Assembly (NCBI GenBank): GCA_027493875.1
Contig: JAOSJX010000006.1
Coordinates: 45,248 to 109,247 of the forward strand
DNA from: Deltaproteobacteria bacterium
GTDB taxonomy: Bacteria > Lernaellota > Lernaellaia > JACKCT01
Reading direction: 5' to 3'
Length of the DNA: 64,000 bases
The first letter of the stretch is position 1. The number at the start of each line of letters is the position of its first letter. Below, in pieces: positions 3,982-60,035 of this stretch. A program made the translations under genes and the position numbers. The notes beneath the pieces are model-generated. The model was not told the DNA's origin, did not search any database, and saw nothing but the letters and a program-made list of their open reading frames with translations.

Positions 3982-5532
3982 TTAGACGGCGGGCAGCGTC
4001 GCGATCCGCTGGCCTTCCAGCCAACGGCGCGCGGTGAGGATGGACGCCTCGCCTTTCAGAATCAGGCCGATTCCTTTTACAACGAATTTTGCCGTATTGA
4101 CGAGTTTCGCCGCGGCAATCACCGGTGAGGGATGCTTCGCGAGAAAGCGCGACCGCGTGAGCCATCGGATGAGCGGACGCGGCACGCCGCGCTTATTACA
4201 CAGCAGATAAAGAGCCAGGAAGAAATTTTCCTCGGGCGGGCGCGGATACGTGAAGTCGGCGTTGAACTGGTGCAGCACTTTCGCGTTGCGTCCTTCTACG
4301 TCGTCCGGCGTGATGAGCCCCGCTTCCAGGAGCTCCCGCGTGCGGTCCGTGCCAGGCCAGTGGCACAGCGAGTAAATCAGAAGATCGAAGGGCCGCGGAA
4401 AACGCAGCAACACGTTGAGAAGCTGCTCTTTGTCTTCGCGTTCCGCGCCGGGATCGTCGATGAGAATCTGGAACATGCCGTGCACGCCGAAGCGCTTGAG
4501 GTTCTTCGCGACCTCGAGAATGCGGTCGTCCCCGCCGGTGCGGTGATAGAGTTTCCGATTATGTTTCGACGCGCCCTGCACGCCGACGAAGATCTCGTCC
4601 ATCCCCGACTCGGCGAGTTTCCGGATCGTCGTTTCGTCCAGGCAGTTCGGATTCGACAGCACGTCGAACGGCAAACCGACGCGCCGCGGGTAGACGTCCG
4701 AAAATTCCTCCAGCCAATCCGGCGTGACCACGAAAAGCTCGTCGTCGAACCGGATGCGTTTGAGGTTCGGAAAATACGGCCGCGCGCGTTCGATCTCGCT
4801 CACGCAGCTTTCCACCGACCGGACGCGGTAAAACGTGCCGTTGCCTTCGTACACCCGGCGCATCGCGCTGATGCCGCAGAATCCGCAACGATACACGCAT
4901 CCGCGCGTCGCCATGATGCGAAACAGTTTTTCGCCGGCCAGCGGCTCGCCGGGCACGACCGTTTCGCCGCGTACCCAGAATTTGTTGGCCACCGAATGAA
5001 AATCCGGCGACGGAATCGTATCCAGATCCGGCGTCAACGGACGCAGCGGATTTTTCACCAGCTTGTCGCCGACGCGCATCCACACGTTTTGAATGGTTTC
5101 GACGTTGCCGTCGCTGGCGTGCGCCCGGGCGATATCCAGAATCGTTTTCTCCGACTCGCCGAGCGCGATGAAATCCGCCTTCTCCACGCAGTCTTCGGGC
5201 GCCATCGTGACGTGCGCGCCGCCCCACATGACGGGGATGCCGAGTTCCTTTTTGATCCGCTGCGTCAACTGCGTGGCGACGTTGAAGAGGGCGCCGATCC
5301 GCAGCGAAAGCCCGACCAGGCCGATCTCGCGTTCGCGCAAAAGATCGATCAGTGTGCGGATTTGCTCTTCCGTCGGCGGCTTGTAGGCGTGGTGCGTGAA
5401 ATATTGGAAGAAAATCTCGTCCACGTCGAAGCCGTTTTTGCGCAGCGACGACGACAAATAGCGAATGGAGTTGCTCTCCACGACGTATAACGCGACAAGC
5501 CCGATGCGTGGCATCCGATGAAAATAACCCAA
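3982..5532 (-). CDS. B12-binding domain / radical SAM domain protein
   Basis: N-terminal cobalamin-binding-like domain, then the radical SAM cysteine motif RGCVYRCGFCG (CxxxCxxC) and an elongated C-terminal region. Confidence 0.8.
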   Translation of the reverse strand: MGYFHRMPRIGLVALYVVESNSIRYLSSSLRKNGFDVDEIFFQYFTHHAYKPPTEEQIRTLIDLLREREIGLVGLSLRIGALFNVATQLTQRIKKELGIPVMWGGAHVTMAPEDCVEKADFIALGESEKTILDIARAHASDGNVETIQNVWMRVGDKLVKNPLRPLTPDLDTIPSPDFHSVANKFWVRGETVVPGEPLAGEKLFRIMATRGCVYRCGFCGISAMRRVYEGNGTFYRVRSVESCVSEIERARPYFPNLKRIRFDDELFVVTPDWLEEFSDVYPRRVGLPFDVLSNPNCLDETTIRKLAESGMDEIFVGVQGASKHNRKLYHRTGGDDRILEVAKNLKRFGVHGMFQILIDDPGAEREDKEQLLNVLLRFPRPFDLLIYSLCHWPGTDRTRELLEAGLITPDDVEGRNAKVLHQFNADFTYPRPPEENFFLALYLLCNKRGVPRPLIRWLTRSRFLAKHPSPVIAAAKLVNTAKFVVKGIGLILKGEASILTARRWLEGQRIATLPAV

Positions 5533-5647
5533 TCCTTCGCCGGAAAAAAGTTGCGGTTCTTACCTCCTCGCACGCGATATGGGGTGCTGGGGCGGCTTTG
5601 CGACGAAAACGCGGTCAAACGTCCGACGCTCTGAAGTCTTTCGGGCG

Positions 5648-6926
5648 TCAATCCGCGTCGGCTTGTGCCAATTTGACGGATGCTTTCTCCGGGAGCGGGA
5701 TCGCGGCGAGCTTCGGGCCCATTTCGTTCATGAGCGCTTCGAAGTCGGCGCGGTAGGCGTCGGGCAGGATCTTCGCGGGTTCGGAATACATTTTCAGGCC
5801 GAGGGGATTGATGTACTGCCCGTTGCGTTTGACGCGGTAGTCCAGGTGCGGGCCGGTCGAACGGCCGGTCGATCCCACGCGCCCGATCATCTGCCCCTGG
5901 CGCACGCGTTGCCCCGAACGAACCGCAATCCGCGACAGATGCATGTACAGCGTCTCGATACCGCCGCCGTGCCGGATCACGATGAGGGTTGCCCGCGGCG
6001 CCGCGGCGTCCCGCCGAGATCACCTTGCCGTCCGCCACCGCCCACACCGGCGTTCCGGTCGGCGCCCCGAAGTCCACGCCGTGATGCATCGCGCGGCGCT
6101 TCAAGATGGGATGGCGCCGCATGCCGAACCGGCTTGTGATGCGCATGGTGTCGAGCGGCGCGCGCATGAACGTGCGGCGAAGCTGCACGCCCTTCTCGTC
6201 GTAAAAGCCGTCGATGTCCTCGTCGCCCACCGAAAACCAGAAGCCGCGCCGTCGCCCGGTTTTCTCGCCGTCGTACTCCCCGGCGAGCAGCCGGCCGTAG
6301 CCGTGCGGCGTGCCGTCCGGCAACAGTTCGCGTTCGTAGATCAACCGGAACGAATCGTCGACGCGCGGATCGGTGTAAAAATCGATGTCCCACGCGAACA
6401 GCCCGGAAACGAGGCTCGCCAGGCCGTCGCCCTCGCCCGCGTCGAGGATCGCCTCGTACACGCTCGTCGCCACGCGCGCGCCCATGTCGCGGACCTCGGT
6501 CGTGGTCGGAATCTCTTCGCGGCGGGCCGCGAAACCGTCACCCTCGGGACGCACTTCGTAGTGCACGAGCCGGTCCACGTGGAAATCCAGACCGCCGAGC
6601 GCGCCGTCGTCCAGGTACGCCACCACCGTCTGCCCCGGACGCATTCTCCGAAAGGGAAACTCCACGTCGCGCAGCGCGTCCACGACCTCCATCGCGTCCT
6701 CGTCCGCCACGCCGGCCTGCGCCAACGCACCGGGCAATGTCTGACCGGACACAATATGCACTTCGACCGGCTCTCCCACCGGCGGGGGTCTCGACGATCG
6801 GCTCGGGCGCCGCGGCGGCGGGGATTCGTCCGGTATCGCCTTCTCCACAACGCACGACGGCGCCGCGGCGAGGAGAGCCGCGATGGTTAGAGCAAAAAGG
6901 AAGAACCGGCTCGCGTTTCGGCGCAT
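5648..6926 (-). CDS. M23 family (LytM-type) metallopeptidase with signal peptide; apparent frameshift near 5985
   Basis: N-terminal signal MRRNASRFFLFALTIAALLAAAPS. M23 motifs HHGVDFGAPTGTPVWAVADGKVISAG (ORF 5349..6926 frame) continue as LIVIRHGGGIETLYMHLSRI…GSTGRSTGPHLDYRVKRNGQYINP in ORF 5648..5980. The junction is at a c/g run. Confidence 0.8.
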
Positions 6927-16681: not shown

Positions 16682-19618
16682 CCGATAAAGCTCAACACCC
16701 GCAGCCGCCGCAACCGCCGTGGAATTGTTCCCGCCGCTGACGCTGCCGTCCTCGTCGTCGTCGTCCGGTGTGATCGGATCGGCCGCGCTGTCGTCGTCAT
16801 CCGCGTCGTCGTCGGGCGGAAAAAATGTCGTCGTCGCCGGCCGAATCGTCGTCCGACGTGTCGTCGTCGCCCGTATCGTCGTCCGCCGGAATCGTGGTGG
16901 TCGTCGTCGACGTCGTCGAGACCGTTGTGGTGGACGAACTGGTCGTCGGCGGAACGGTTGTGGAGGACGTTGTCGTTGTGGTCGAGGAACTGCTTGTCGT
17001 CGTCGAGCTTGATGACGTCGTGGTCGTCGAAGACGACGTCGTCGTGGAGGACGAGGACGTGGTCGTCGTACTCGATGAGGTCGTCGTGGTCGATGAGCTT
17101 GAAGTCGTGGTCGTGGAGGAGCTCGTCGTGGTGGTCGAGCTGGAAGATGTGGTCGTGGTCGAACTGGACGTTGTCGTTGTGGTCGAGGAACTGCTTGTCG
17201 TCGTCGAGCTTGATGACGTCGTGGTCGTCGAAGACGACGTCGTCGTGGAGGACGAGGACGTGGTCGTCGTACTCGATGAGGTCGTCGTGGTCGATGAGCT
17301 TGAAGTCGTGGTCGTGGAGGAGCTCGTCGTGGTGGTCGAGCTGGAAGATGTGGTCGTGGTCGAACTGGACGTTGTCGTCGTAGAGGAACTGCTGGTCGTC
17401 GTTGTACTCGACGACGTGGTGGTCGTCGACGAACTCGTTGTCGTCGTCGACGAACTTGTGGTCGTCGTGGAACTGGAGGTTGTTGTCGTTGACGAGGACG
17501 TGGTCGTGGTCGACGAACTCGTTGTTGTTGTCGATGACGACGTCGTGGTGGTCGACGAACTCGTTGTCGTCGTCGACGAACTTGTGGTCGTTGTGGAACT
17601 GGAAGTCGTGGTCGTCGACGAGGACGTGGTTGTGGTCGACGAGCTTGTGGTGGTTGTGGAGGAACTCGTGGTCGTGGTTGAAGACGACGTCGTGGTGGTG
17701 GAAGAGGAGCTCGTCGTCGTTGAGGAACTGCTTGTCGTTGTCGTTGAGCTGGACGTCGTCGTCGTGGAGGACGACGTGGTGGTCGTCGACGAGCTTGTGG
17801 TGGTTGTGGAACTGGATGATGTGGTCGTGGTTGACGACGAACTCGTGGTCGTCGAAGAACTGCTTGTCGTCGTTGAAGAACTCGAGGTGGTTGTGCTGCT
17901 CGACGTCGTCGTGGTGGACGAGGTCGTGGTCGTGGAAGAACTCGATGTGGTCGTTGTGGTGGAGGTCGTGGTCGTCGTCGTGACGACCGGATCACCCGGA
18001 ATCTCGCCCCACCACGTCGCCCAGCGGTCCCACCCGCCGCCGGGCGTCGCCGCGTATTCCTGAATCGTCCAGAACGTCGTGTCGTCTTCCGGGTCCACGA
18101 CGGTGTTGCTGTAATCGCCCCAGCGATTCCGTGTGCCGCTGTAGATTTTGTAATAAGGCGCTTCCCCGGCCTTGAGCACCGTATCGTCGCGCAAGACGCC
18201 CGCGGCATCCGTATCGTAGCGGAACGAATAGTTGCCGCCGGCGTACTGCGTTTCGGAAAACCGCGAGTAACCGATGACCGCGTTGTTGTATTGGTTCACC
18301 GCCATGCTGGGATACGCGTAAAACAAGTTTGCCGTGCCGTCGTCGATCCGGCCCTCTTGAACGCGCGAGATGGTCGACGGATTGATTTCCCACCATTGAA
18401 TGGACGACCGCGTCGGCGAGAAGGACGGCAGGAAGATCGTGTGCGTCGCCCAAAGGCTCCCGTTCCGGTAGACCAGCGTCTGCATCCGGTGATCGTTGGT
18501 CGTGATGCCTTGCACGGAATCGAGCTGCGGCGCGAAATCGTTTCCGGCGCTGCCGGCCCAGGTCCCAAGGGCGCTGCCGATCGCTCCCATGTACGAAATC
18601 GACTCCGAACCGATGGCGCCGGTGATTTGATAGAGACGGACTTCCCCGACAGCGAGCGCAGCACGTAGATCCGGTCGAGGGACGCGTCGAAGGTCTGCGC
18701 GGGGACCATGGTGAACTGCGGGTAGTCGATCCGCGTGTAGTCGACGGCGCCGCCGGCGTAGAGATCGGCCTTGTCGAAAACGAACAGGTACGTGGTCGAA
18801 TACGCATTCCCGCTGATGGTGAACATGTTCACCGAGACGACGACCCAGTCCTTGTTGTAGCCGAAGCTCGGATAATCGACCCACAGCGTGTTCCCCGAAT
18901 CCCCGTCGAGGAAGTAGAGATACCAGGTTCCCGTCGGGTCATCCGTCGCCGACGCGCCGATGAGCACGCCCGAGGTCGACGACGCGGCGTTCGCGCACGC
19001 GGTGAAAATCCACCGGCCCGACAGCTGGTCATAGAGCACCTTCGGATCGAACGCGTCGGCGCCGAGGGAACTCCAGAACACATCCAACGTCACCGTCCCG
19101 AGATTCGTTCCGGTCTTGCTCTGGATGCGCACCTGCGAATTGAGCACGGTCATCAGGTGATCGGGGCCGGCGGCGCCGTGCGTGTCCGGGGGAATCGTCG
19201 TGTTGTTGTCGAGCAGCGCCTGGAAGCTCGACGTGGGCGAAGGGCCGGGTACCAAGGGCGGAGGTCCGGCTTTTTCCGGCCCGCCGCGCTCCGGAAGCGG
19301 CGCGGCATCGTCATTCAAATAGTAATCGACCCACGGCGCCTCGCCTTCGTAGATCGGCGGGCCGACCGCCGCTTCCTGCATGACGAGATCGGAAAAATCG
19401 ACGACCGCGCTCGCGCGGATCTCGAGACGGGTTCCGGGGACCGGGCCGTCTTCCTCGATTTCGTCAAGGTTGACGCCGCCGCCGTCGGGATCATGCTCGA
19501 CGGTGATGTCGTCCGCGGACTCTTCCGCCGGTCCGTCATCCAACGAAGGATCACAGGCCGCGCCGGCCAAAACGACCAGCGCGCACAGAACGAAGAAAAT
19601 AGGATGACGAAGTTTCAC
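16682..19618 (-). CDS. giant secreted lipoprotein with a mucin-like Thr/Ser repeat region (~330 aa of TTTTSSS repeats) and an Asp-rich C-terminal tail ending …GGCGGCGC*; at least three apparent frameshifts
   Basis: Lipoprotein signal MKLRHPIFFVLCALVVLAGAAC at 19618. The globular domain runs across ORF 18296..19618 then ORF 16797..18884, joined at a g4 run near 18640. The T/S repeats are at ~16940-17990. The tail …IPADDDTGDDDTSDDDSAGDDDIF then continues, after an a6 run near 16810-16815, as PPDDDADDDDSAADPITPDDDDEDGSVSGG. A further 1-nt shift gives HGGCGGCGC with a TGA at 16682-16684. Confidence 0.6.
16940..17990 (-). repeat. tandem coding repeats (Thr/Ser-rich, ACG/TCG codon arrays) including exact ~200-bp tandem duplications (17001-17200 ≈ 17201-17400)
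   Basis: Long arrays of gtcgtcgtc/gaggacgac-type units, with whole blocks repeated verbatim. All three minus-strand frames stay open across it, producing artefactual Pro/Arg-rich ORFs; the plus-strand frames produce Val/Glu/Asp-rich ORFs. Confidence 0.8.
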
Positions 19619-51858: not shown

Positions 51859-53179
51859 TCAGGTGAGGTACGTTACGAGCCGGCGAACATGGCTTCGACA
51901 GAAGTCCTTGGCGTCGAAGGCGCGCAGATCGTCGATTTTCTCGCCGATGCCGATAAACCGGATGGGGACCTTCAGTTCATTGCTGATCCCCACGATGCAT
52001 CCGCCTTTCGCCGTGCCGTCGAGCTTCGTCATGATGATGCCCGAAAGGTCGATCGCTTCGTTGAAGGTCTTGGCTTGCTGAATCGCGTTCTGGCCCGTCG
52101 TCGCGTCGAGCACGAGCACGGTCTCGTGCGGCGCCTCTGGAACGATCTTCGCCATCACACGTTTCGTCTTCTTGAGCTCTTCCATCAGGTTCGACTTGGT
52201 GTGCAGCCGTCCCGCCGTATCCACGAGCACGACGTCCGCGCCGCGCGATTTCGCCGCCTGCACCGCGTCGTAGGCCACGGCGGACGGATCGGCCCCGGCG
52301 TCCTGTTTGATGATCTCGCAGCCGACGCGCCCGGCCCACACCTCGAGCTGCTCGATGGCGGCGGCGCGGAATGTATCGCCCGCGGCGAGCAGAACTTTTT
52401 TTTCCGTCCGCGGCGTACTTCGCGGCGATCTTGCCGATCGTCGTCGTCTTGCCGACGCCGTTAACACCGACGACCATAATGACGAACGGCTTGGCGCCGC
52501 TGACTTCCAGCGGGATCGCCTCGGTCTGCAGGATGCCGCCGATGAGTTCCTTGAGCACGTCGCGCAGACCGGCCGGGTCCTCGATGCCGCGCTCCGATAC
52601 GATCTCTCGCGCCTGGTCGAGAAGATCGGTCGCCGTTTGCACGCCGATGTCCGCGGTGATGAGCGCCTCTTCGAGATCGTCGTAGAGATCCTGATCGATC
52701 GCCGAACGGCCGGTGAGAATTTGATCGATCTTCCCGACGAGTCCCGCGCTCGTTTTGGCAAGCCCCGCCTTGAGCCGTCCAAACCAGGAAACCTTGGGTT
52801 CCGGCGCGGGAGCCGGCTCGGGTTCCGGCTCGGGTTCGGGCTCAGGGGCGGCTTCGGGTTCCTCCGCCTCGGCTTCGAGCATCGCCTCGATATCGGCGTC
52901 CGCGAGCGCTTCACCGTCTTCTTCAGGTTCTTCTTCGGACTCCGCGGTGACCGCCTCTTCACGCGCGGAGAGCTTTTCCACAAGCTCCCGGGTTTTACGC
53001 CGGCGCGACAGAAGCAACAACATCCACAACAAGAGCAACAGCGCCACCAACAAAAGCGGCACGCTCTTCGTCGCCAATGGCAAGCCGGTGCTTTCCAGCA
53101 ACAAATTGAGATTGTGGTGAGCCGGACCCCAGTATTTGTCCAAAAGCTCGCCGATCACCGGAATGTCGGACCAAAACAT
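51859..53179 (-). CDS. ftsY: signal recognition particle receptor FtsY; apparent frameshift at t8/a8 run ~52394-52402
   Basis: Membrane-anchored acidic A domain, then the NG domain [23 protein letters not shown] (G1) continuing as [17 protein letters not shown]…LDTAGRLH…[13 protein letters not shown]. Confidence 0.85.
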
Positions 53180-54022: not shown

Positions 54023-55812
54023 ATGAAGTATTATTTTGTTTTCCTCCTCGCGCTTTTTGCGTTTATTCCCGTTTTGTCGTGCGGCTGCGGCGGCGACGAT
54101 GACGACGACGATAACGACTCGGCCGGCGACGACGACACCGATGACGACGTCGACGATGATACGGATGACGACATCGACGACGACACCGATGACGACATCG
54201 ACGATGATACGGATGACGATACCGACGATGACACCGACGACGACACGGGCGACGACGACGCGGCGCCCGACCGGCTCGTCTTCGTTCCGGCGACCGTTGA
54301 CGACTCCGGAAAAAAAGTCGGCGTTCTTCTAACCATCGATACGACGGGCGACGAAAACGAGGCCGTCGTTTCTCTCGTGGAGATGCCGTCCGGTACGCTC
54401 CTCCGGTCGAGCGACCCGGTTTCGCTGGGGGCGTTCGGCGCCGCGAATTGTCTGGTGGAGGATTTTACGGGCGACGGCGTCGCGGAGATCGTTTGCGGCT
54501 TCATCTCGATGGACAGCCCCACCGACCCCTCGACGGAGGTGGTGATTCTCGATCCGGACACGTTGGGAACGGACCTCGTCGTCGATACGTACGACGCGGC
54601 GCAGGCGCTGCTCGGCGGCAACATCGACGTGAACGGCGACGGCGTTCCCGGAACTCGTCGTCTGGACGATTCCCACGGGCACGGACGGCGCGCACATCGG
54701 CGCGTTCGACGGCACGCTCGCCTATACCGACCTGCTCGATTACACCGCGGCCGAGGGGCGCAACGCGCGCGTGCACGCGCTGCCGTACCGCTCCGGCTGG
54801 TCGCGCCCCGCGGATTTTTCCGGCGCGAAAGCGAACGAGGTGATCGTCGCGGAGTACGACCGCGAGGGCGACGATCCGGTGGTCGAAATATTTTCCGTGA
54901 ACCCGTCGGGCGCCGTCACGAGTTCGCTCGGTCCCTATACGCTGGCGACGGCCGCGGCTTATCATTTGACGACCGCGGATTTGAACGGCGACGGCGACGG
55001 CGAACTCGCGCTGGCGCTGCAACTGGACGCGTCGACGGTCGTCTACCTGTTCGATACGTTCGGCGACGTGGTCGGCACGTACACCTACCCCGCCGGGGTC
55101 TCCGCGCGCGTGGCGATGAATCTGAATCTCGACGGCGACGGCCAAAACGATCTGGCGATCACGCTGCGCGGCTCGAGCGACGAACGCGCGATCGATCTCT
55201 ACTCCTCGACCGGCGCCTATCTGGACGGCGTGCGTTTCGGGCCGGAGGGCGACCAGATCCGGTTGCTCGCGTCGTCCGTTTCGCCCGGCGTGGCGGCCCC
55301 GGCGTCGACGGGCGGCGACGCACTGTTCGGCGTGATGGTGGAGGAATTCGACACGGGCGGCCCTGCGCGCATCGATTTTTTTCACCGATCCGTCGGACGC
55401 GACGCCGATCACGCTCGACGATCTCACCGTGTCGTCGGAGCACATCTATCTGGGGGCGTCTTTGCGCGATTACACGGGCGACGGCGTGGCCGAAGTGATC
55501 GCGGTGACGATGGGTTACGCGATTTCCGCGGCGGAGATCGTTTACCAGCGCCGGGTGCAGGTGTTCGGCGGCGCGGACGTGGAACTCGGCTACGACTCCG
55601 GCGCGGTGCCGGGATCGATTTCGCTGGCGAGCCCGTGGGACACGGACGCGGACGGCGTGCCGGAGTTTCAGCTCACGCACTACGGATCGTCGGCCGCCGA
55701 CGTGCCGTGGATTCGTTTTTACAACGGCGTGGACTCGTGGAGCGTGGCGCGGGTGACGCTGGTCGGCGACATCGCCGGGTCGGATATTTTTCTGTACGGG
55801 CTGCCGCGTTAA
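54023..55812 (+). CDS. lipoprotein with a Cys-Gly-Cys-Gly-Gly plus long poly-Asp N-terminus and FG-GAP/VCBS-like (DxDGDG) beta-propeller repeats; two apparent frameshifts
   Basis: MKYYFVFLLALFAFIPVLSCGCGGDDDDDDND…(DDDTDDDI)n. Repeats FTGDGVAEIV, NVNGDGVP, LNGDGDGELA, LDGDGQNDLA, YTGDGVAEVI. The frame changes occur near 54650 and at the t7 run 55371-55377. Confidence 0.65.
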
Positions 55813-57557
55813 TTAAACGAACAGCGTCCACTCCAGCGCGACGAGGCCGGCGGCGAGGAAGTGCGTGTCGACGAGGAAGTCCCGGCGCACGACGCTGACG
55901 CGGTCGAACGAAAATCCCCGATAGTGGAAGAAGATCGTTTCCGCGAGGACGACAAGGCCGAGAATCCACGCGAAAGGCGGAAAAATGCCGACGCCCGCGA
56001 CGGCGATGAGCAGCACGCCGAGCGCGGCGCACCCGTAGAGCAACGCCTGCTTGGTTTTTTTCTCGCCGAACACCAGCGGGATCGTTTCGCGGCCGACGAG
56101 CCGGTCGGCGTTCATATCCGTCAGGTCCACGACGACCGAGCGAATGCCGGTGACGAGGAAGAGGAAGAAGAACGTGAGCAGCGTCTGGCCGAGGCCCGCG
56201 TTTTCCGTCAGGAAGAACAGCGGGAACACGGAGACGACCGCCCACGCGGAGGCGACGAAGAAGTTTTTACTGGCCGCGATGTCCTTGAGGCGGCGGAACC
56301 CGACGTATTTCGTCACGCGTTTCGGCACGATCTTCACCGAATAGAGAATGCCGAGAATGCTGGCGGCGAGCACGAGCAGGAAGGGCAGCACACCCATATA
56401 GAAGCCGACGGCCACCGCGGCGAGGGCGCTGCCCACGCCGAGCGCCTGCATGAAGCGCTTGTTCTTTTCGTAAAAACGCGCGCGGACCGGATCGTCGCGG
56501 AAGCGGTCGAGATTGCGTTCGGTGAATCGGTTGAGGACGTGCATGGCGAGCACGTAACAAAAGACCAGCGCGAAGGAGGAGAGGCGGAACGGAATGCCCT
56601 GCAGCAGCGCGGCGACGTAACAGAGCACGCCCGCGGCGATGCTGGTGTACGCGCTCGTGACGACGAGCGCTTCGAGCACGCGCTTGGCCTTGGAGAGCAC
56701 GGGCGCGCGGCTTTGGTCTTCCAGCGTTTTCAGATACGCCATGACGCGGTCGATGCTCCACGAGGGCGTGCTCGCGCCCGCGGTGACGCCGACCCGGCTG
56801 TACGGCGTGAAATCCACGCCCGCGAGTTCGTCTTCGGTTTCGATGTGCCACGTGGGGAGGCGGAATTCCTCGGAGGCGATTTGCGCGAGGCGCGTCGTGT
56901 TCCCGAGTTCTTGCCGCCGATGACGACCATGGCGTCGACCGAGCGGCAGAGTTCGAGAATTTCGTCCTGGCGTTCGACGGTGGCGTCGCACATGGTGTCC
57001 TTGACGACGACGCTCGGGAAGCGCTCGCGCGCCTCCTTCATGATGCGTTGCCACTCGGCGACGTTGGTGGTGGTCTGCGTGATGAGCAGGACGTTGCGGT
57101 CCGCGGGGATTTTGTCGAGCTCGTGCGCGCCTTCGATGATGCGCACGTTGTCGGCGCCGGCGAAACCGATGAGGCCGATGACCTCGGCGTGGCGCGGCTC
57201 GCCGTAAATCACCACGAAATGCCCTTTTTTGACGTAGGTCTGCACCACCTTCTGCGACCGCTTCACGATCGGGCAGGTGTTGTCGAGGATGGCGTCGGAC
57301 CGGCGTTCGAGTTCGGCGTAATCCGCGGGGGAGACGCCGTGCGACCGGATGATCGCCAGACCGCCGTCGATCTCTTGGATGGCGCCCGCGTTGTGGATTT
57401 CACGATGGCGCAGCAGATCGACGACCTGCGGATTGTGCACCAGCGGGCCGAGGGTCGTGACTTTTTGGTATTGGGAGGCCTCGACTTCGAGGGTTTTGTT
57501 GAGCGCCAGACGCACGCCCCAGCAAAACCCCGCCGTTTTGGCCAGAATAAATTCCAT
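55813..57557 (-). CDS. ispH: 4-hydroxy-3-methylbut-2-enyl diphosphate reductase (IspH/LytB) fused in-frame to a C-terminal UbiA-superfamily membrane prenyltransferase domain; apparent frameshift near 56900
   Basis: IspH MEFILAKTAGFCWGV…PLVHNPQVV…VVIGGKNS continues, after a g-run, as NTTRLAQIASE…IDRVMAYLKTLEDQ. It then runs without a stop into a ~290-aa polytopic domain with UbiA-like Asp-rich motifs (NRFTERNLDRFRDD, VVDLTDMNADRL). Confidence 0.65.
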
Positions 57558-57715: not shown

Positions 57716-58537
57716 CTAAACGCGGGCCGCAAAAACCCCTGCGGGCTTCAACTTCCCCGCCGATACTAGCTTTTTTCGGCTTCCGGCGTATATGAAGCAG
57801 ATCACACAGCCGGCGAGCATGGCAATGCTTATCCACTGGCTGGTGGACAGGAAGCCGAAACGGCCGCGGGAGGCGTCACCACGCATGAATTCCAGCAAAA
57901 AGCGCCCGACGCCGTAAATACCTAATTGCAGGCCGAAAATTTCGCCATAGGCCCGTTCTTTCTTCTTGGCGCGGTAGGCCATCAGAATGCCGAACATCAG
58001 GAGCCCCAAAAGAGCCTCGTAAAGCTGCGACGGGTGGAGGGCCAAGCCGCCGTAGGCCTTGTCCGGCCGCGAACCCTCGGGAAAGATGACCCCCCAGGGC
58101 AGGTCGGTGGGCGCGCCGTAGCAGCAGCCCGCCATGAAGCAGGCGCCCGAACGGTGAATGGCGAGCCCCAGGCCGAAGTAGGTGCTGGCGATATCCTGAA
58201 ACGGCAGATAGGGGTGGCGCTTGAATTTGGTGTAACCGACCGCGCCGGCGACCGCGCCGATGAAGCCGCCGTAGAGCACGATGCCGCGCTTGCGATTGAA
58301 GATGCGGACGGGATCGGCCCAGTACCAGTCGAAATTGACGATCACGTCGAGCAGGCGCGAGCCGACGATGACGCCGACCAGCGACGCGATGAGCGCGCCC
58401 ATCATCAACTCTTCGTTGAAGCCTTCTTTCTTTGCGCGCCGCACGCACAGGATCACGCCCATCAGGATCGTGAGCGGATACACCACCTGATAAAAATGGA
58501 TGTCCTTGCCGGCGACGGTCACTAGAATGGGATGCAA
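57716..58537 (-). CDS. lgt: prolipoprotein diacylglyceryl transferase
   Basis: Lgt signature LHPSQLYEALLGL, conserved YGxxxxxG and H…S residues; TTG start with a GGGAGGG SD. Confidence 0.85.
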   Translation of the reverse strand: MHPILVTVAGKDIHFYQVVYPLTILMGVILCVRRAKKEGFNEELMMGALIASLVGVIVGSRLLDVIVNFDWYWADPVRIFNRKRGIVLYGGFIGAVAGAVGYTKFKRHPYLPFQDIASTYFGLGLAIHRSGACFMAGCCYGAPTDLPWGVIFPEGSRPDKAYGGLALHPSQLYEALLGLLMFGILMAYRAKKKERAYGEIFGLQLGIYGVGRFLLEFMRGDASRGRFGFLSTSQWISIAMLAGCVICFIYAGSRKKLVSAGKLKPAGVFAARV

Positions 58538-58805: not shown

Positions 58806-59396
58806 TCACGCGCCGGACGCCTCACCTTCGACGAGCACGCCGATCCGCACGTACCACATCACGTGATAGGAATCGGCGTCCGTGCATTCGACGCAGTAGT
58901 TGAACTCCTCGTCGCGATGCGCGAGGTAGTAGTTGATCAACTCCTCCGCGTTCGCGTCGACCTCGATCGGCGTCCAGCTCATCGAACCCTTCACCACGTC
59001 CTGCTCGACGATGAGCGCGCTGCCGGCGTCGCCCCAGAGCGTCATGGCGCAGGAAACCGATCCGACCTCGACCGGTTCCCACATCGCGTCGGCGTATTTG
59101 GCTTCGACGTATTCGAGCGTGATCGAATCGATGTCCGCGCCTTCGGTATCCACGTCATTGCGCTCCAATTCTTCGTTGACCGACGTAATGCCGCAATCCA
59201 TGTCCAGCGGCTGGAGCTTGGCGGCGGTCTGCTCCGCCTCGATCGGTTCGAGCTCGAGCTCGGCGTCTTTTTCAAAACTCGTATCCACGTTCTTCATCGC
59301 TTCGTCCTTGGCTTCGTCCTCCAGATCACAGGAAGCGGCCACGAATCCGAAGCAAAGCACCACGCCAATCCAGAGAAACACGTATCTCGCCTTCAT
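58806..59396 (-). CDS. hypothetical acidic lipoprotein
   Basis: MKARYVFLWIGVVLCFGFVAASC lipobox with GGAGG 7 nt upstream; divergent from the RiPP precursor gene. Confidence 0.5.
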   Translation of the reverse strand: MKARYVFLWIGVVLCFGFVAASCDLEDEAKDEAMKNVDTSFEKDAELELEPIEAEQTAAKLQPLDMDCGITSVNEELERNDVDTEGADIDSITLEYVEAKYADAMWEPVEVGSVSCAMTLWGDAGSALIVEQDVVKGSMSWTPIEVDANAEELINYYLAHRDEEFNYCVECTDADSYHVMWYVRIGVLVEGEASGA

Positions 59397-59448
59397 CGGA
59401 ACCTCCATTTTGGAAAACGTCCCAGGGTAGGTTTCGACGCGAAGGTTC

Positions 59449-59475
59449 GTCAACCGCAAGTATTTGTTATTTTAG
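59449..59475. promoter_or_regulatory. conserved 26-nt motif, copy 2, in the divergent region between the lipoprotein gene and the RiPP precursor gene
   Basis: Matches 58755-58780 at 24 of 26 positions. Confidence 0.35.
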
Positions 59476-59666
59476 AGGTATTTCCGATATCTCTCCTTTT
59501 TGGGTTGAAGACGCGCGCGAGATGTCCGCGCGCATGATTTTCATCATAACGCCATACGGTTCGATGCGATTTGATGCGGGCTTCACGTTCAGGAGGAAAC
59601 ACGGAAGACGGCCCTGCCGTATTCCAAAGCGTTACTCACGCATTCATTACGCAAGGAGCACCGATC

Positions 59667-60035
59667 ATGAAGAAGAGCAGCCTGATTCTCGGACTTGGTT
59701 CCGCGGCCTTCCTTTTGGGAACGCCGATCGCGCACGCGGCGACGGACGCGGACGCGCTCGTGAAGGACGCGGTGAAATCGTCCAAATCGTCCGATGCGTC
59801 CGGCGTCATGCTGGCGTTTCTGTCGGATGATGACACGGGCGGCGAAGGAAGCTGCGGCGGCGAGGGCAAATGCGGCGAAGGGAGCTGCGGCGGCGACAAA
59901 GACAAGGACAAAGACAAGGACAAGGACAAGGACAAGGATAAGGATAAGGACAAAGACAAGGGTAAGGACGAAGGCGGCGAGAAGGACAAGGGCGAAGGCA
60001 AGTGCGGCGAGGGAAGCTGCGGCGGCAAGAAGTAA
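59667..60035 (+). CDS. secreted HvfA-like RiPP precursor (EGKCG/EGSCG cysteine motifs) with a (DK)9 spacer
   Basis: AAGGAG SD; Sec signal MKKSSLILGLGSAAFLLGTPIAHA; core GGEGSCGGEGKCGEGSCGGDKDKDKDKDKDKDKDKDKDKGKDEGGEKDKGEGKCGEGSCGGKK (5 Cys, all in EGxCG). An MNIO gene lies immediately downstream. Confidence 0.75.
   Translation: MKKSSLILGLGSAAFLLGTPIAHAATDADALVKDAVKSSKSSDASGVMLAFLSDDDTGGEGSCGGEGKCGEGSCGGDKDKDKDKDKDKDKDKDKDKDKGKDEGGEKDKGEGKCGEGSCGGKK

What the first reader, a model, noticed from the sequence alone, without database searches (positions are those of the whole stretch)
55813..57557. IspH (HMBPP reductase) fused to a UbiA-family membrane prenyltransferase domain, next to lgt
The IspH reading frame, repaired across one g-run indel, runs without a stop into ~290 aa of polytopic membrane protein carrying UbiA-type Asp-rich motifs. 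It would deliver DMAPP/IPP directly to a membrane prenyltransferase. Its position immediately upstream of lgt (lipoprotein diacylglyceryl transferase), in a genome region full of unusual lipoproteins, raises the possibility of isoprenoid-based (ether-type) lipid anchors.
Basis: partly seen in the sequence, partly recalled or inferred. Interest (0 to 1): 0.6.

Follow-up and report, generated by a model that had tools for sequence, protein, structure and literature searches.

The report
Known IspH–UbiA fusion gene, assembly-frameshifted
This is one gene that joins the last enzyme of the bacterial isoprenoid-precursor pathway (IspH) to a membrane prenyltransferase-like domain; the fusion was published in 2015, occurs in hundreds of species, still has no known second function, and here is broken only by what looks like a one-base assembly error.

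Summary
On the minus strand (57557→55813), adding one base in the Gly219 codon (window 56902-56904) gives a 581-aa ORF. Residues 4-277 match LYTB/IspH (273 bits; TIGR00216 above cutoff) and residues 313-551 match UbiA PF01040 (69 bits; cutoff 34). The break lies inside IspH's invariant GGxNSxNTxRL motif, not between the domains. At least three other genes in the window, including essential ftsY, are also frameshifted, so I read it as an assembly indel. The architecture is not new: Rao et al. 2015 (Chem Sci, PMC4746011) described IspH-UbiA "Rosetta stone" fusions, with the UbiA domain's function unknown. Here I found over 120 full-length homologues and relatives in 256 species genomes. All 78 assessable loci of the best 80 carry the fusion. 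IspH catalytic residues are invariant across 190 fusions. The UbiA-like domain has a 9-helix UbiA fold and a canonical second Asp motif, but a non-canonical first motif (N-x-x-x-[D/E], never NDxxD). It reaches no cutoff for any characterised UbiA subfamily. The lgt link is weak: lgt lies upstream, not downstream, and is adjacent only in the three closest relatives. Nothing supports isoprenoid lipoprotein anchors. Verdict: already known, function still open, low-to-moderate interest.

The parts
55813..57557 (-). ispH-ubiA-like fusion gene: 581 aa after repair of a 1-nt deletion; stop codon at 55813-55815
   Evidence: ORFs and repair; LYTB + UbiA Pfam hits; over 120 full-length homologues of 575-606 aa carrying both Pfam domains
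56725..57557 (-). IspH (HMBPP reductase) domain, residues 1-278. Cluster ligands C12, C95, C190. Substrate and catalytic residues H41, H73, H123, E125, T162, T163, S218, N220, S263
   Evidence: TIGR00216 264.5 bits above cutoff. These residues are invariant in 33 and about 190 fusions. AF2 model half matches E. coli IspH 3KE8, TM 0.84, rmsd 2.0 A
56902..56904 (-). Site of the 1-nt deletion (Gly219 codon lacks its third base) that splits the ORF into two frames
   Evidence: Repair restores the invariant GGKNSGNTTRL motif, and intact relatives L004-L006 have a full Gly codon here
55816..56724 (-). Linker helix plus UbiA-superfamily membrane domain (residues 279-581), 9 predicted transmembrane helices
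   Evidence: PF01040 69 bits. AF2 pLDDT 87, pTM 0.86. Foldseek: ApUbiA 4OD4 TM 0.63-0.69, then DGGGPS 7BPU/6M31, AfUbiA 4TQ3, UBIAD1 8DJK
56482..56532 (-). Non-canonical first 'Asp-rich' motif at the end of TM2 and in loop 2-3: N343-R-F-T-E347-R-N-L-D351-R-F-R-D355-D356-P357-V-R359
   Evidence: 190 fusions: N 182/190; position +1 is never D; +4 is D/E in 176/190; +8 is acidic in only 62/190; P357 187/190
56242..56289 (-). Conserved cytoplasmic loop 4-5 and TM5 block L424-K-D-I-A-A-S430-K431...W439
   Evidence: K431 and W439 190/190, S430 189/190
56065..56127 (-). Canonical second Asp-rich motif D478-L-T-D481-M-N-A-D485-R-L-V-G489-R-E-T-I-P...G498
   Evidence: D485 189/190, G489 190/190, D/E478 186/190, E491 178/190. 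This region aligns to both Asp motifs of M. jannaschii DGGGPS 6M31
57716..58537 (-). lgt (prolipoprotein diacylglyceryl transferase), co-directional and 158 nt upstream of the fusion; probably co-transcribed in this lineage
   Evidence: PF01790 178 bits, full length. TIGR00544 above cutoff. No terminator-like site between the two genes, and a promoter-like site at 58595-58567 upstream of lgt. The same lgt-fusion order is seen in L004-L006

Best explanation
This is a single gene for a membrane-anchored two-domain protein of the published IspH-UbiA 'Rosetta stone' family. The break in the reading frame is most likely a one-base assembly or sequencing deletion, not biology. The N-terminal domain is a normal, catalytically competent [4Fe-4S] IspH that reduces HMBPP to IPP and DMAPP in the cytoplasm. 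Its last helix runs through a short linker helix into a nine-helix UbiA-fold domain. In that domain the Lys/Arg-rich loops that carry the conserved motifs (loops 2-3, 4-5 and 6-7) are predicted to face the cytoplasm, on the same side as IspH. The UbiA-like domain is most likely an active Mg2+-dependent prenyl-diphosphate transferase with an unknown acceptor. It belongs to a distinct subfamily (CDD PT_UbiA_5 according to Rao et al.) that, in the genomes sampled here, is found only fused to IspH. Because the fusion is obligate, I infer that the transferase uses a product made by the attached IspH, most simply the C5 donor DMAPP, or benefits from a high local IPP/DMAPP concentration. Shown: domain identities, conservation of catalytic residues, the folds, the constancy of the fusion, and the indel. 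Inferred: topology, catalytic activity of the UbiA-like domain, the donor, and channelling. Unknown: the acceptor and the product.
For: Both Pfam domains score above cutoff, and TIGR00216 is above cutoff. Over 120 full-length homologues at 35-72% identity carry both domains. The motif scan matched 256 species genomes; in the best 80 loci, 78 of 78 assessable have IspH directly fused upstream, 76 of them as a single ORF of about 581 aa. IspH cluster and substrate residues are invariant in 190 fusions. In the UbiA domain N343, P357, S430, K431, W439, R473, D478, D485, G489, E491 and T492 are at least 86% conserved across sequences only 35% identical overall. AF2 models are confident (pLDDT 87-89). 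The halves match IspH (TM 0.84) and UbiA-family structures (TM 0.63-0.70). Indel as artefact: the repair restores an invariant motif. The coding signal (GC3 0.88) continues for 331 codons after the shift. Peptidase_M23, ftsY and the FG-GAP lipoprotein gene in the same window are also split between frames inside conserved domains. The published interpretation of the family is the same (PMC4746011).
Against: No biochemical data exist for any member; full-length expression failed in 2015. The first Asp-rich motif lacks the canonical Asp at +1 in every member, and the Asp at +8 in two thirds of them, so Mg2+/diphosphate binding may differ or be weakened. No characterised UbiA subfamily model reaches its cutoff; the best score is 30 bits against a cutoff of 238. 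Gene neighbourhoods give no family-wide partner that would point to an acceptor. The public record carries the same frameshift: P0008 is 100% identical but covers only the part after the shift. A real, very recent pseudogene therefore cannot be ruled out from sequence alone. I could not inspect model coordinates or predicted aligned errors, so the IspH-UbiA interface is not assessed.
Confidence: 0.7

Rival explanations
1. The UbiA-like domain is a catalytically dead membrane anchor. Its only role is to tether the (possibly sole) IspH to the membrane, for example near a membrane-associated electron donor or downstream membrane prenyltransferases.
For: The first Asp-rich motif is degenerate: no Asp at +1 in 190/190, and +8 acidic in only 62/190. 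No characterised UbiA subfamily is matched. Rao et al. also raise membrane localisation of IspH as a role.
Against: A pure anchor would not keep polar and charged residues at catalytic-type positions across 35%-identical sequences. D485 is 189/190, G489 190/190, K431 190/190, and N343, D/E347, R473, E491 and T492 are each at least 93% conserved. The second motif still aligns to the Asp motifs of DGGGPS.
Confidence: 0.15
2. The frameshift is real. In this organism the gene is a pseudogene, or is expressed as two polypeptides: a truncated IspH fragment and a separate UbiA-like protein, as the public annotation of P0008 implies.
For: The public record holds the same frameshift: P0008 is 343 aa, 100% identical, and annotated as a stand-alone UbiA family prenyltransferase.
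Against: The shift removes the invariant S218-x-N220-T221 substrate-binding motif and the last third of IspH, so no functional IspH could result. Everything downstream stays open, keeps its codon bias, and is 72% identical to an intact orthologue. Essential ftsY and two other genes in the same 64 kb are likewise frameshifted. Other MAG assemblies (L032, L083) show similar splits in this gene.
Confidence: 0.1
3. One reading: the fusion works with the neighbouring Lgt to build isoprenoid (ether-type) lipid anchors on the many lipoproteins encoded nearby.
For: lgt and the fusion are co-directional with no terminator-like site between them. The pair is kept in the three closest relatives. Several lipobox proteins are encoded nearby.
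Against: The adjacency is limited to one shallow clade (57-70% identity in the UbiA domain). It is absent in 75 other assessable loci, including the next-closest lineages. Lgt is a canonical full-length family member above the equivalog cutoff. From established knowledge, Lgt takes its diacylglyceryl group from phosphatidylglycerol, and nothing here suggests altered specificity. The fusion family is far more widespread than this gene order.
Confidence: 0.03

Closest known systems
IspH-UbiA 'Rosetta stone' fusion proteins (Rao, O'Dowd, Li, Wang, Oldfield 2015, Chem Sci 6:6813; PMC4746011)
   Same: Same architecture: N-terminal IspH with three conserved Cys, and a C-terminal 9-TM UbiA-like domain, about 580 aa in total. 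The window protein aligns end to end at 35-42% identity with fusions from Thermodesulfobacteriota, including cultured Desulfocarbo indianensis and Dethiosulfatarculus sandiegensis. The functional hypothesis is the same and equally untested.
   Different: The paper reported 47 sequences, all from sulfate-reducing anaerobes. The window copy belongs to a separate clade: 72% identical to the nearest protein and about 50% to Ca. Lernaella / FEN-1099. That clade has a one-residue insertion (R354) and an acidic residue at +8 of motif 1. The family is now also seen in MAGs labelled Nitrospinota and Nitrospirota. The window copy carries a 1-nt deletion.
Canonical stand-alone IspH/LytB (E. coli 3KE8, A. 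aeolicus 3DNF)
   Same: 30-38% identity, TM 0.78-0.84, all cluster and substrate-binding residues present.
   Different: About 300 extra C-terminal residues form a membrane domain, so the protein is predicted to be membrane-bound rather than soluble.
Archaeal UbiA-superfamily enzymes: ApUbiA (4OD4/4OD5), AfUbiA (4TQ3/4TQ4), DGGGPS (6M31/7BPU)
   Same: Same 9-helix fold (TM 0.52-0.69). The second Asp-rich motif D..D...D...G..(T/S).P is conserved. These are the best, though weak, sequence matches: 6M31 at E = 3e-7, PRK13591/PRK12872 at about 30 bits.
   Different: Only 13-18% identity. The first motif is N-x-x-x-[D/E] instead of NDxxDxxxD. Every equivalog cutoff is missed by a wide margin. There is no evidence for a glycerol-phosphate acceptor.
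IspH-RPS1 fusions (NCBIfam NF000907, Firmicutes/Fusobacteria)
   Same: Another C-terminal extension of IspH. The IspH half of that model gives the highest NCBIfam score (278.7 bits).
   Different: The partner is four to six S1 RNA-binding repeats, not a membrane domain, and the full-model cutoff of 624 bits is not reached.

Membership tests
IspH/LytB, HMBPP reductase (PF02401, TIGR00216) | Profile score above the curated cutoffs over the full domain | tested here: met
   PF02401 273.5 bits (cutoff 24.5), profile positions 2-267 of 267.
IspH/LytB, HMBPP reductase (PF02401, TIGR00216) | Three Cys ligands of the [4Fe-4S] cluster, plus the catalytic Glu and the His/Thr/Ser/Asn substrate-binding residues | tested here: met
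   C12, C95, C190, E125, H41, H73, H123, T162/T163, S218, N220 and S263 are present and invariant in 190 fusions. S218 and N220 lie on either side of the indel and are in one frame only after repair
IspH/LytB, HMBPP reductase (PF02401, TIGR00216) | Three-lobed alpha/beta (trefoil) fold | tested here: met
   AF2 model (pLDDT 88.6) against E. coli IspH 3KE8: TM 0.84, rmsd 2.0 A; against A. aeolicus 3DNF: 36-38% identity
IspH/LytB, HMBPP reductase (PF02401, TIGR00216) | Uninterrupted reading frame | tested here: inconclusive
   Not met in the sequence as given (1-nt deletion at 56902-56904). However, ftsY, an M23 peptidase gene and an FG-GAP lipoprotein gene in the same window are also frameshifted, which points to assembly error. 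Reads are needed to decide
IspH/LytB, HMBPP reductase (PF02401, TIGR00216) | HMBPP to IPP + DMAPP activity | not testable with these tools
   Needs an enzyme assay or complementation of an ispH mutant
UbiA prenyltransferase superfamily (PF01040) | Profile score above the Pfam gathering threshold | tested here: met
   68.9-69.6 bits against a cutoff of 34.2, profile positions 10-234 of 250
UbiA prenyltransferase superfamily (PF01040) | Nine-TM helical fold with cap loops HL2-3 and HL6-7 | tested here: met
   The AF2 domain model has nine long helices plus short loop helices. Foldseek: 4OD4 TM 0.63/0.69, 4TQ3 0.63/0.67, 7BPU and 8DJK, all probability 1.00
UbiA prenyltransferase superfamily (PF01040) | First Asp-rich motif NDxxDxxxD | tested here: not met
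   The window reads N343-R-F-T-E-R-N-L-D. Across 190 fusions, +1 is never Asp, +4 is D/E in 93%, and +8 is acidic in 33%. N and one or two acidic residues are kept, so this is a reduced variant rather than complete loss
UbiA prenyltransferase superfamily (PF01040) | Second Asp-rich motif DxxxD (D..D...D...G) | tested here: met
   D478-L-T-D481-M-N-A-D485-R-L-V-G489-R-E-T. D485 is 189/190 and G489 190/190. It aligns to the DGGGPS motifs
UbiA prenyltransferase superfamily (PF01040) | Mg2+-dependent prenyl transfer | not testable with these tools
   No biochemical data for any member of this subfamily
Characterised UbiA subfamilies (DGGGPS, ChlG, archaeal PRK13591/PRK12872 prenyltransferases; UbiA, MenA and CyoE did not appear) | NCBIfam equivalog score above cutoff | tested here: not met
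   The best scores are 30-31 bits against cutoffs of 238-353, so the domain cannot be assigned to any characterised acceptor class
IspH-UbiA Rosetta-stone fusion family (Rao et al. 2015) | IspH at the N-terminus and the UbiA-like domain at the C-terminus of one polypeptide of about 580 aa | tested here: met
   581 aa after repair. Full-length alignment with 32 fusions, no stop between the domains
IspH-UbiA Rosetta-stone fusion family (Rao et al. 2015) | Orthology with the fusions of sulfate-reducing Deltaproteobacteria | tested here: met
   35-42% identity over 99-100% of the length to fusions from Desulfobacterales, Desulfobulbales, Desulfarculales and Desulfobaccales. The UbiA-domain motif [RK]L[KM][DE]I[PA][AG]SK is shared
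IspH-UbiA Rosetta-stone fusion family (Rao et al. 2015) | CDD class PT_UbiA_5 for the C-terminal domain | not tested
   No CDD library is available here
Lgt (the neighbouring gene) | Equivalog and Pfam scores above cutoff over the full length | tested here: met
   PF01790 178.1 bits, positions 1-240 of 240. TIGR00544 124.3 bits against a cutoff of 118.9

The most novel reading that the evidence does not exclude
The UbiA-like domain is a dedicated C5 (DMAPP-dependent) prenyltransferase that takes DMAPP straight from the fused IspH and alkylates a membrane isoprenoid or other lipid, as lycopene elongases do. The product would be an undescribed lipid class shared by Thermodesulfobacteriota, Nitrospinota, Nitrospirota and the FEN-1099/Lernaellota lineage. 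Two hints: the domain is never seen without IspH (78 of 78 loci), and in Desulfobaccales a PF04240 (CruF-type carotenoid hydratase family) gene sits divergently next to the fusion. The second hint comes from a single lineage, and the lyeJ-cruF parallel is from memory.
Probability: 0.1. Interest if true: 0.6.

Novelty: already known. Interest (0 to 1): 0.2.

Why it matters
As a discovery it adds little, because the fusion has been in the literature since 2015 and intact orthologues are routinely annotated as IspH. Three practical points follow. First, the public record of this genome splits the gene and labels the 3' part a stand-alone UbiA prenyltransferase, so the MAG appears to lack ispH; that is an annotation artefact of an indel-rich assembly. 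Second, the family is much broader than first reported: 256 species-level genomes rather than 47 sequences, and not only sulfate reducers. The UbiA-like subfamily appears only as a fusion, which strengthens the case for a real functional coupling. Third, what the UbiA-like domain makes is still an open, testable question, and the conserved but atypical first motif gives concrete residues to mutate.

Tried and rejected
1. Gene-neighbourhood inference of the acceptor. I clustered ORFs from 80 loci. Every recurrent neighbour is confined to one closely related lineage, so there is no family-wide partner. The neighbours were PF04240 + PNP_UDP_1 in Desulfobaccales (fusion proteins 72-95% identical), Dus upstream with GT2 + HIT downstream in another clade, and lgt in the window's clade. 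None of the other lineages' neighbours occurs anywhere in the window.

2. A GC3 frame plot to count frameshifts across the window. It was too noisy to tell gene boundaries from shifts, so I replaced it with split-Pfam-domain evidence.

3. Looking up the source record with the look-up of encoding contigs for P0008: not on record.

4. AFDB50 fold search for the closest stand-alone relatives: the library was unavailable.

5. Rfam and promoter/terminator scans of 53-61 kb: no RNA element, and no terminator between lgt and the fusion.

6. Literature after 2015 (searches for 'IspH-UbiA', 'PT_UbiA_5', LytB+UbiA+fused, and UbiA+Desulfobacterota): nothing functional beyond Rao et al..

7. Whether the fusion is the only ispH in these genomes: only ±6-10 kb flanks could be read. 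No second ispH was found in the window or in any flank, which says little.

8. A PDB sequence-profile search matched only DGGGPS, and only through the motif-2 half. The N-terminal half of the UbiA-like domain has no detectable sequence match to solved structures.
Full report
**Observation**

The feature lies on the minus strand. An ATG at 57557 opens a frame that reads MEFILAKTAGFCWGV…DAMVVIGGKNSG and then degenerates into Arg-rich sequence. A second frame reads …NTTRLAQIASEEF… through about 360 further codons to a stop at 55813-55815. Adding one base after TCGGG (window 56902-56904, the third base of the Gly219 codon) gives a continuous 581-aa ORF.

At nucleotide level the closest intact relative, L006, reads AAC TCG GGC AAC ACC ACG CGC CTC. 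The window reads AAC TCG GG- AAC ACG ACG CGC CTC. Pfam finds LYTB (273.5 bits, residues 4-277) and UbiA PF01040 (68.9 bits, residues 313-551, cutoff 34.2). NCBIfam TIGR00216 (ispH) scores 264.5 bits against a cutoff of 187.85.

- The indel is inside the IspH domain, not at the domain junction.
- lgt is upstream of the fusion, not downstream.
- Only one of the two UbiA Asp-rich motifs is canonical.

**Is the frameshift real?**

The shift cuts the motif G214-G215-x-x-S218-x-N220-T221-x-R223-L224, which is invariant in 33 aligned fusions and in about 190. Repair restores it exactly. The downstream frame keeps strong codon bias (GC3 0.88 over 331 codons) and stays 72% identical to an intact orthologue (P0001).

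The same 64-kb window holds other frame breaks inside conserved domains:

| Gene | Evidence of the split |
|---|---|
| M23 peptidase | Peptidase_M23 profile positions 2-35 in one ORF, 35-96 in another |
| ftsY (essential) | SRP54 GTPase profile positions 1-31 in one ORF, 27-192 in another |
| Adjacent FG-GAP/poly-Asp lipoprotein gene | Read in three frames |

Two other MAG loci (L032, L083) also show this gene split across frames. I conclude that the break is most likely an assembly or sequencing indel. The public record carries the same error. P0008 is a 343-aa protein annotated as "UbiA family prenyltransferase"; it is 100% identical to the window but covers only the part after the shift. 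Only the reads can settle this.

**What it is**

A homology search returned over 120 full-length proteins of 575-606 aa with both Pfam domains, at 72% down to 35% identity. Sources mostly name them IspH, in MAGs of Deltaproteobacteria, Myxococcales, Nitrospinae, Desulfobulbales and Ca. Lernaella stagnicola.

A motif scan of one genome per GTDB species with the UbiA-domain alignment found 256 genomes encoding a relative. The best 80 include Desulfobaccales, Desulfarculaceae, Desulfobulbales, Syntrophobacterales, Desulfobacterales, Nitrospinota, Nitrospirota and the FEN-1099 MAG. They also include the cultured Desulfocarbo indianensis and Dethiosulfatarculus sandiegensis.

In 78 of the 78 loci with enough upstream sequence, IspH is directly joined to the UbiA-like domain. 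In 76 of them the two form a single ORF of median 581 aa. In the sampled genomes this UbiA subfamily is therefore never seen without IspH.

**Prior knowledge**

- They found 47 IspH-UbiA sequences, all in sulfate-reducing bacteria.
- They classed the C-terminal domain as PT_UbiA_5, of unknown function.
- They noted a separate UbiA/MenA in those genomes.
- They proposed that the domain localises IspH to the membrane and that IspH supplies IPP/DMAPP.
- They failed to express full-length protein.

Further literature searches found nothing functional since.

**Anatomy and likely mechanism**

*IspH half.* C12, C95 and C190 (cluster ligands) are invariant. So are H41, H73, H123, E125, T162/T163, S218, N220 and S263. 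The AF2 model (pLDDT 88.6, pTM 0.76) superposes on E. coli IspH 3KE8 at TM 0.84 and rmsd 2.0 Å. This is a normal, presumably active HMBPP reductase.

*UbiA-like half.* The AF2 domain model (pLDDT 87.1, pTM 0.86) has nine long helices. It matches the following structures at 13-18% identity:

- ApUbiA 4OD4: TM 0.63-0.69
- AfUbiA 4TQ3: TM 0.63-0.67
- DGGGPS 7BPU/6M31
- UBIAD1 8DJK

The Lys/Arg-rich loops carrying the conserved motifs (HL2-3, HL4-5, HL6-7) would be cytoplasmic by the positive-inside rule. That places the putative active site on the same side as IspH; this is an inference.

| Motif | Sequence in the window | Conservation in 190 fusions |
|---|---|---|
| Motif 2 | D478-x-x-D481-x-x-x-D485-x-x-x-G489-[RK]-E-T-x-P | Canonical and nearly invariant |
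| Central block | L-K-D-I-[PA]-x-S430-K431…W439 | Nearly invariant |
| Motif 1 | N343-R-F-T-E347-R-N-L-D351…D355-D356-P357-x-R359 | N 96%; +1 never Asp; +4 acidic 93%; +8 acidic 33% |

No characterised UbiA subfamily model comes near its cutoff. The best are archaeal prenyltransferase/DGGGPS-like models at about 30 bits against cutoffs of 238 or more. The only PDB sequence-profile match is DGGGPS, through the motif-2 half.

Charged residues at catalytic-type positions are strongly conserved across sequences only 35% identical. That argues for an enzyme rather than a mere anchor. The donor, acceptor and product are unknown. The obligate fusion makes direct use of an IspH product, most simply DMAPP, the most economical guess, but that is inference.

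**Context**

lgt (58537→57716, minus) is a canonical Lgt: PF01790 178 bits, TIGR00544 124.3 bits against a cutoff of 118.9. It lies 158 nt upstream of the fusion, with no terminator-like site between the genes and a promoter-like site upstream of lgt. Co-transcription is therefore plausible.

The lgt-fusion order recurs only in L004, L005 (the same contig as L001) and L006, which are the closest relatives (57-70% identity in the UbiA domain). It is absent from the flanks of all other assessable loci, including FEN-1099 and Ca. Lernaella.

Unbiased clustering of neighbouring ORFs found only lineage-restricted partners:

- A PF04240 Caroten_synth gene plus a PNP_UDP_1 gene in Desulfobaccales, where the fusion proteins are 72-95% identical to each other.
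- Dus upstream, with GT2 and HIT downstream, in another clade.

The lgt adjacency is therefore local synteny. It gives no support to the idea of isoprenoid lipoprotein anchors.

**Verdict**

This is a real, correctly recognised domain fusion, but it is already described in the literature and annotated in databases. The window copy is an orthologue in a lineage near FEN-1099/Lernaellota, broken by a probable assembly indel. What remains open is the chemistry of the UbiA-like domain. This work adds three things:

- The family is broader than first reported (256 species genomes, not only sulfate reducers).
- The UbiA-like domain is always found fused to IspH.
- The first motif is atypical but conserved.

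Novelty: already known. Interest: 0.2.

Noticed in passing
window ~5985 (-), ~52400 (-), 54023-55812 (+): Three more genes are frameshifted inside conserved domains. Peptidase_M23 is split between ORFs 5349-6926 and 5648-6019. ftsY (SRP54 GTPase) is split between 51977-53179 and 51859-52983. The poly-Asp/FG-GAP lipoprotein gene runs through three frames. Indels appear to be a general property of this assembly.
   Followed up: partly
window 16894-17982: Highly repetitive GTCGTCGTC-type DNA with nested periods of 21, 42, 63 and 201 nt. In one minus-strand frame it gives 363 codons with GC3 0.99 and GC2 0.01 and a protein made only of D/H/N/V/F/L/E/K/Q residues. The true frame, strand and meaning were not resolved.
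   Followed up: partly
window 54023-55812 (+), 58806-59459 (-), 59571-60035 (+): A cluster of small acidic lipoproteins or secreted proteins surrounds lgt. One has the lipobox VLSC followed by a long (D)n/DDDT linker and FG-GAP repeats. One has the lipobox VAASC. One has a signal peptide followed by GEGSCGG/GEGKCG units and a (KD)n run.
   Followed up: no
L012, L016, L017, L021, L032, L033, L038, L053, L055, L062, L068, L070, L071 (about 250-500 nt upstream of the fusion, opposite strand): In Desulfobaccales relatives a PF04240 Caroten_synth (CruF-type hydratase family) gene lies divergently next to the IspH-UbiA fusion, with a PNP_UDP_1 phosphorylase-family gene beside it. From memory, this recalls the haloarchaeal lyeJ (UbiA-type, DMAPP-dependent lycopene elongase) and cruF pair. 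It is a single-lineage synteny, so weak evidence.
   Followed up: partly
L019, L029, L034, L041, L042, L044, L052, L060, L064 and others: In another Thermodesulfobacteriota clade the fusion is preceded by a dihydrouridine synthase (Dus) gene and followed by a family-2 glycosyltransferase gene and a HIT-family gene.
   Followed up: partly
L066 (MAG labelled Promethearchaeota archaeon), L051 (MAG labelled Caldisericota): Contigs binned to an Asgard archaeon and to Caldisericota carry typical bacterial IspH-UbiA fusions (about 39-41% identity in IspH). This is probably mis-binning rather than a real distribution.
   Followed up: no
P0008 (public record of the window's genome): The public annotation calls the part after the frameshift a stand-alone 343-aa 'UbiA family prenyltransferase'. 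The genome would therefore seem to lack ispH and to have a free UbiA_5-type protein. This is an annotation artefact.
   Followed up: partly
L032 5097-5922, L083 5001-5814: Two 'MFD…' MAG loci also have the IspH domain of the fusion split over two frames, so frameshifts in this gene recur in some MAG assemblies.
   Followed up: no
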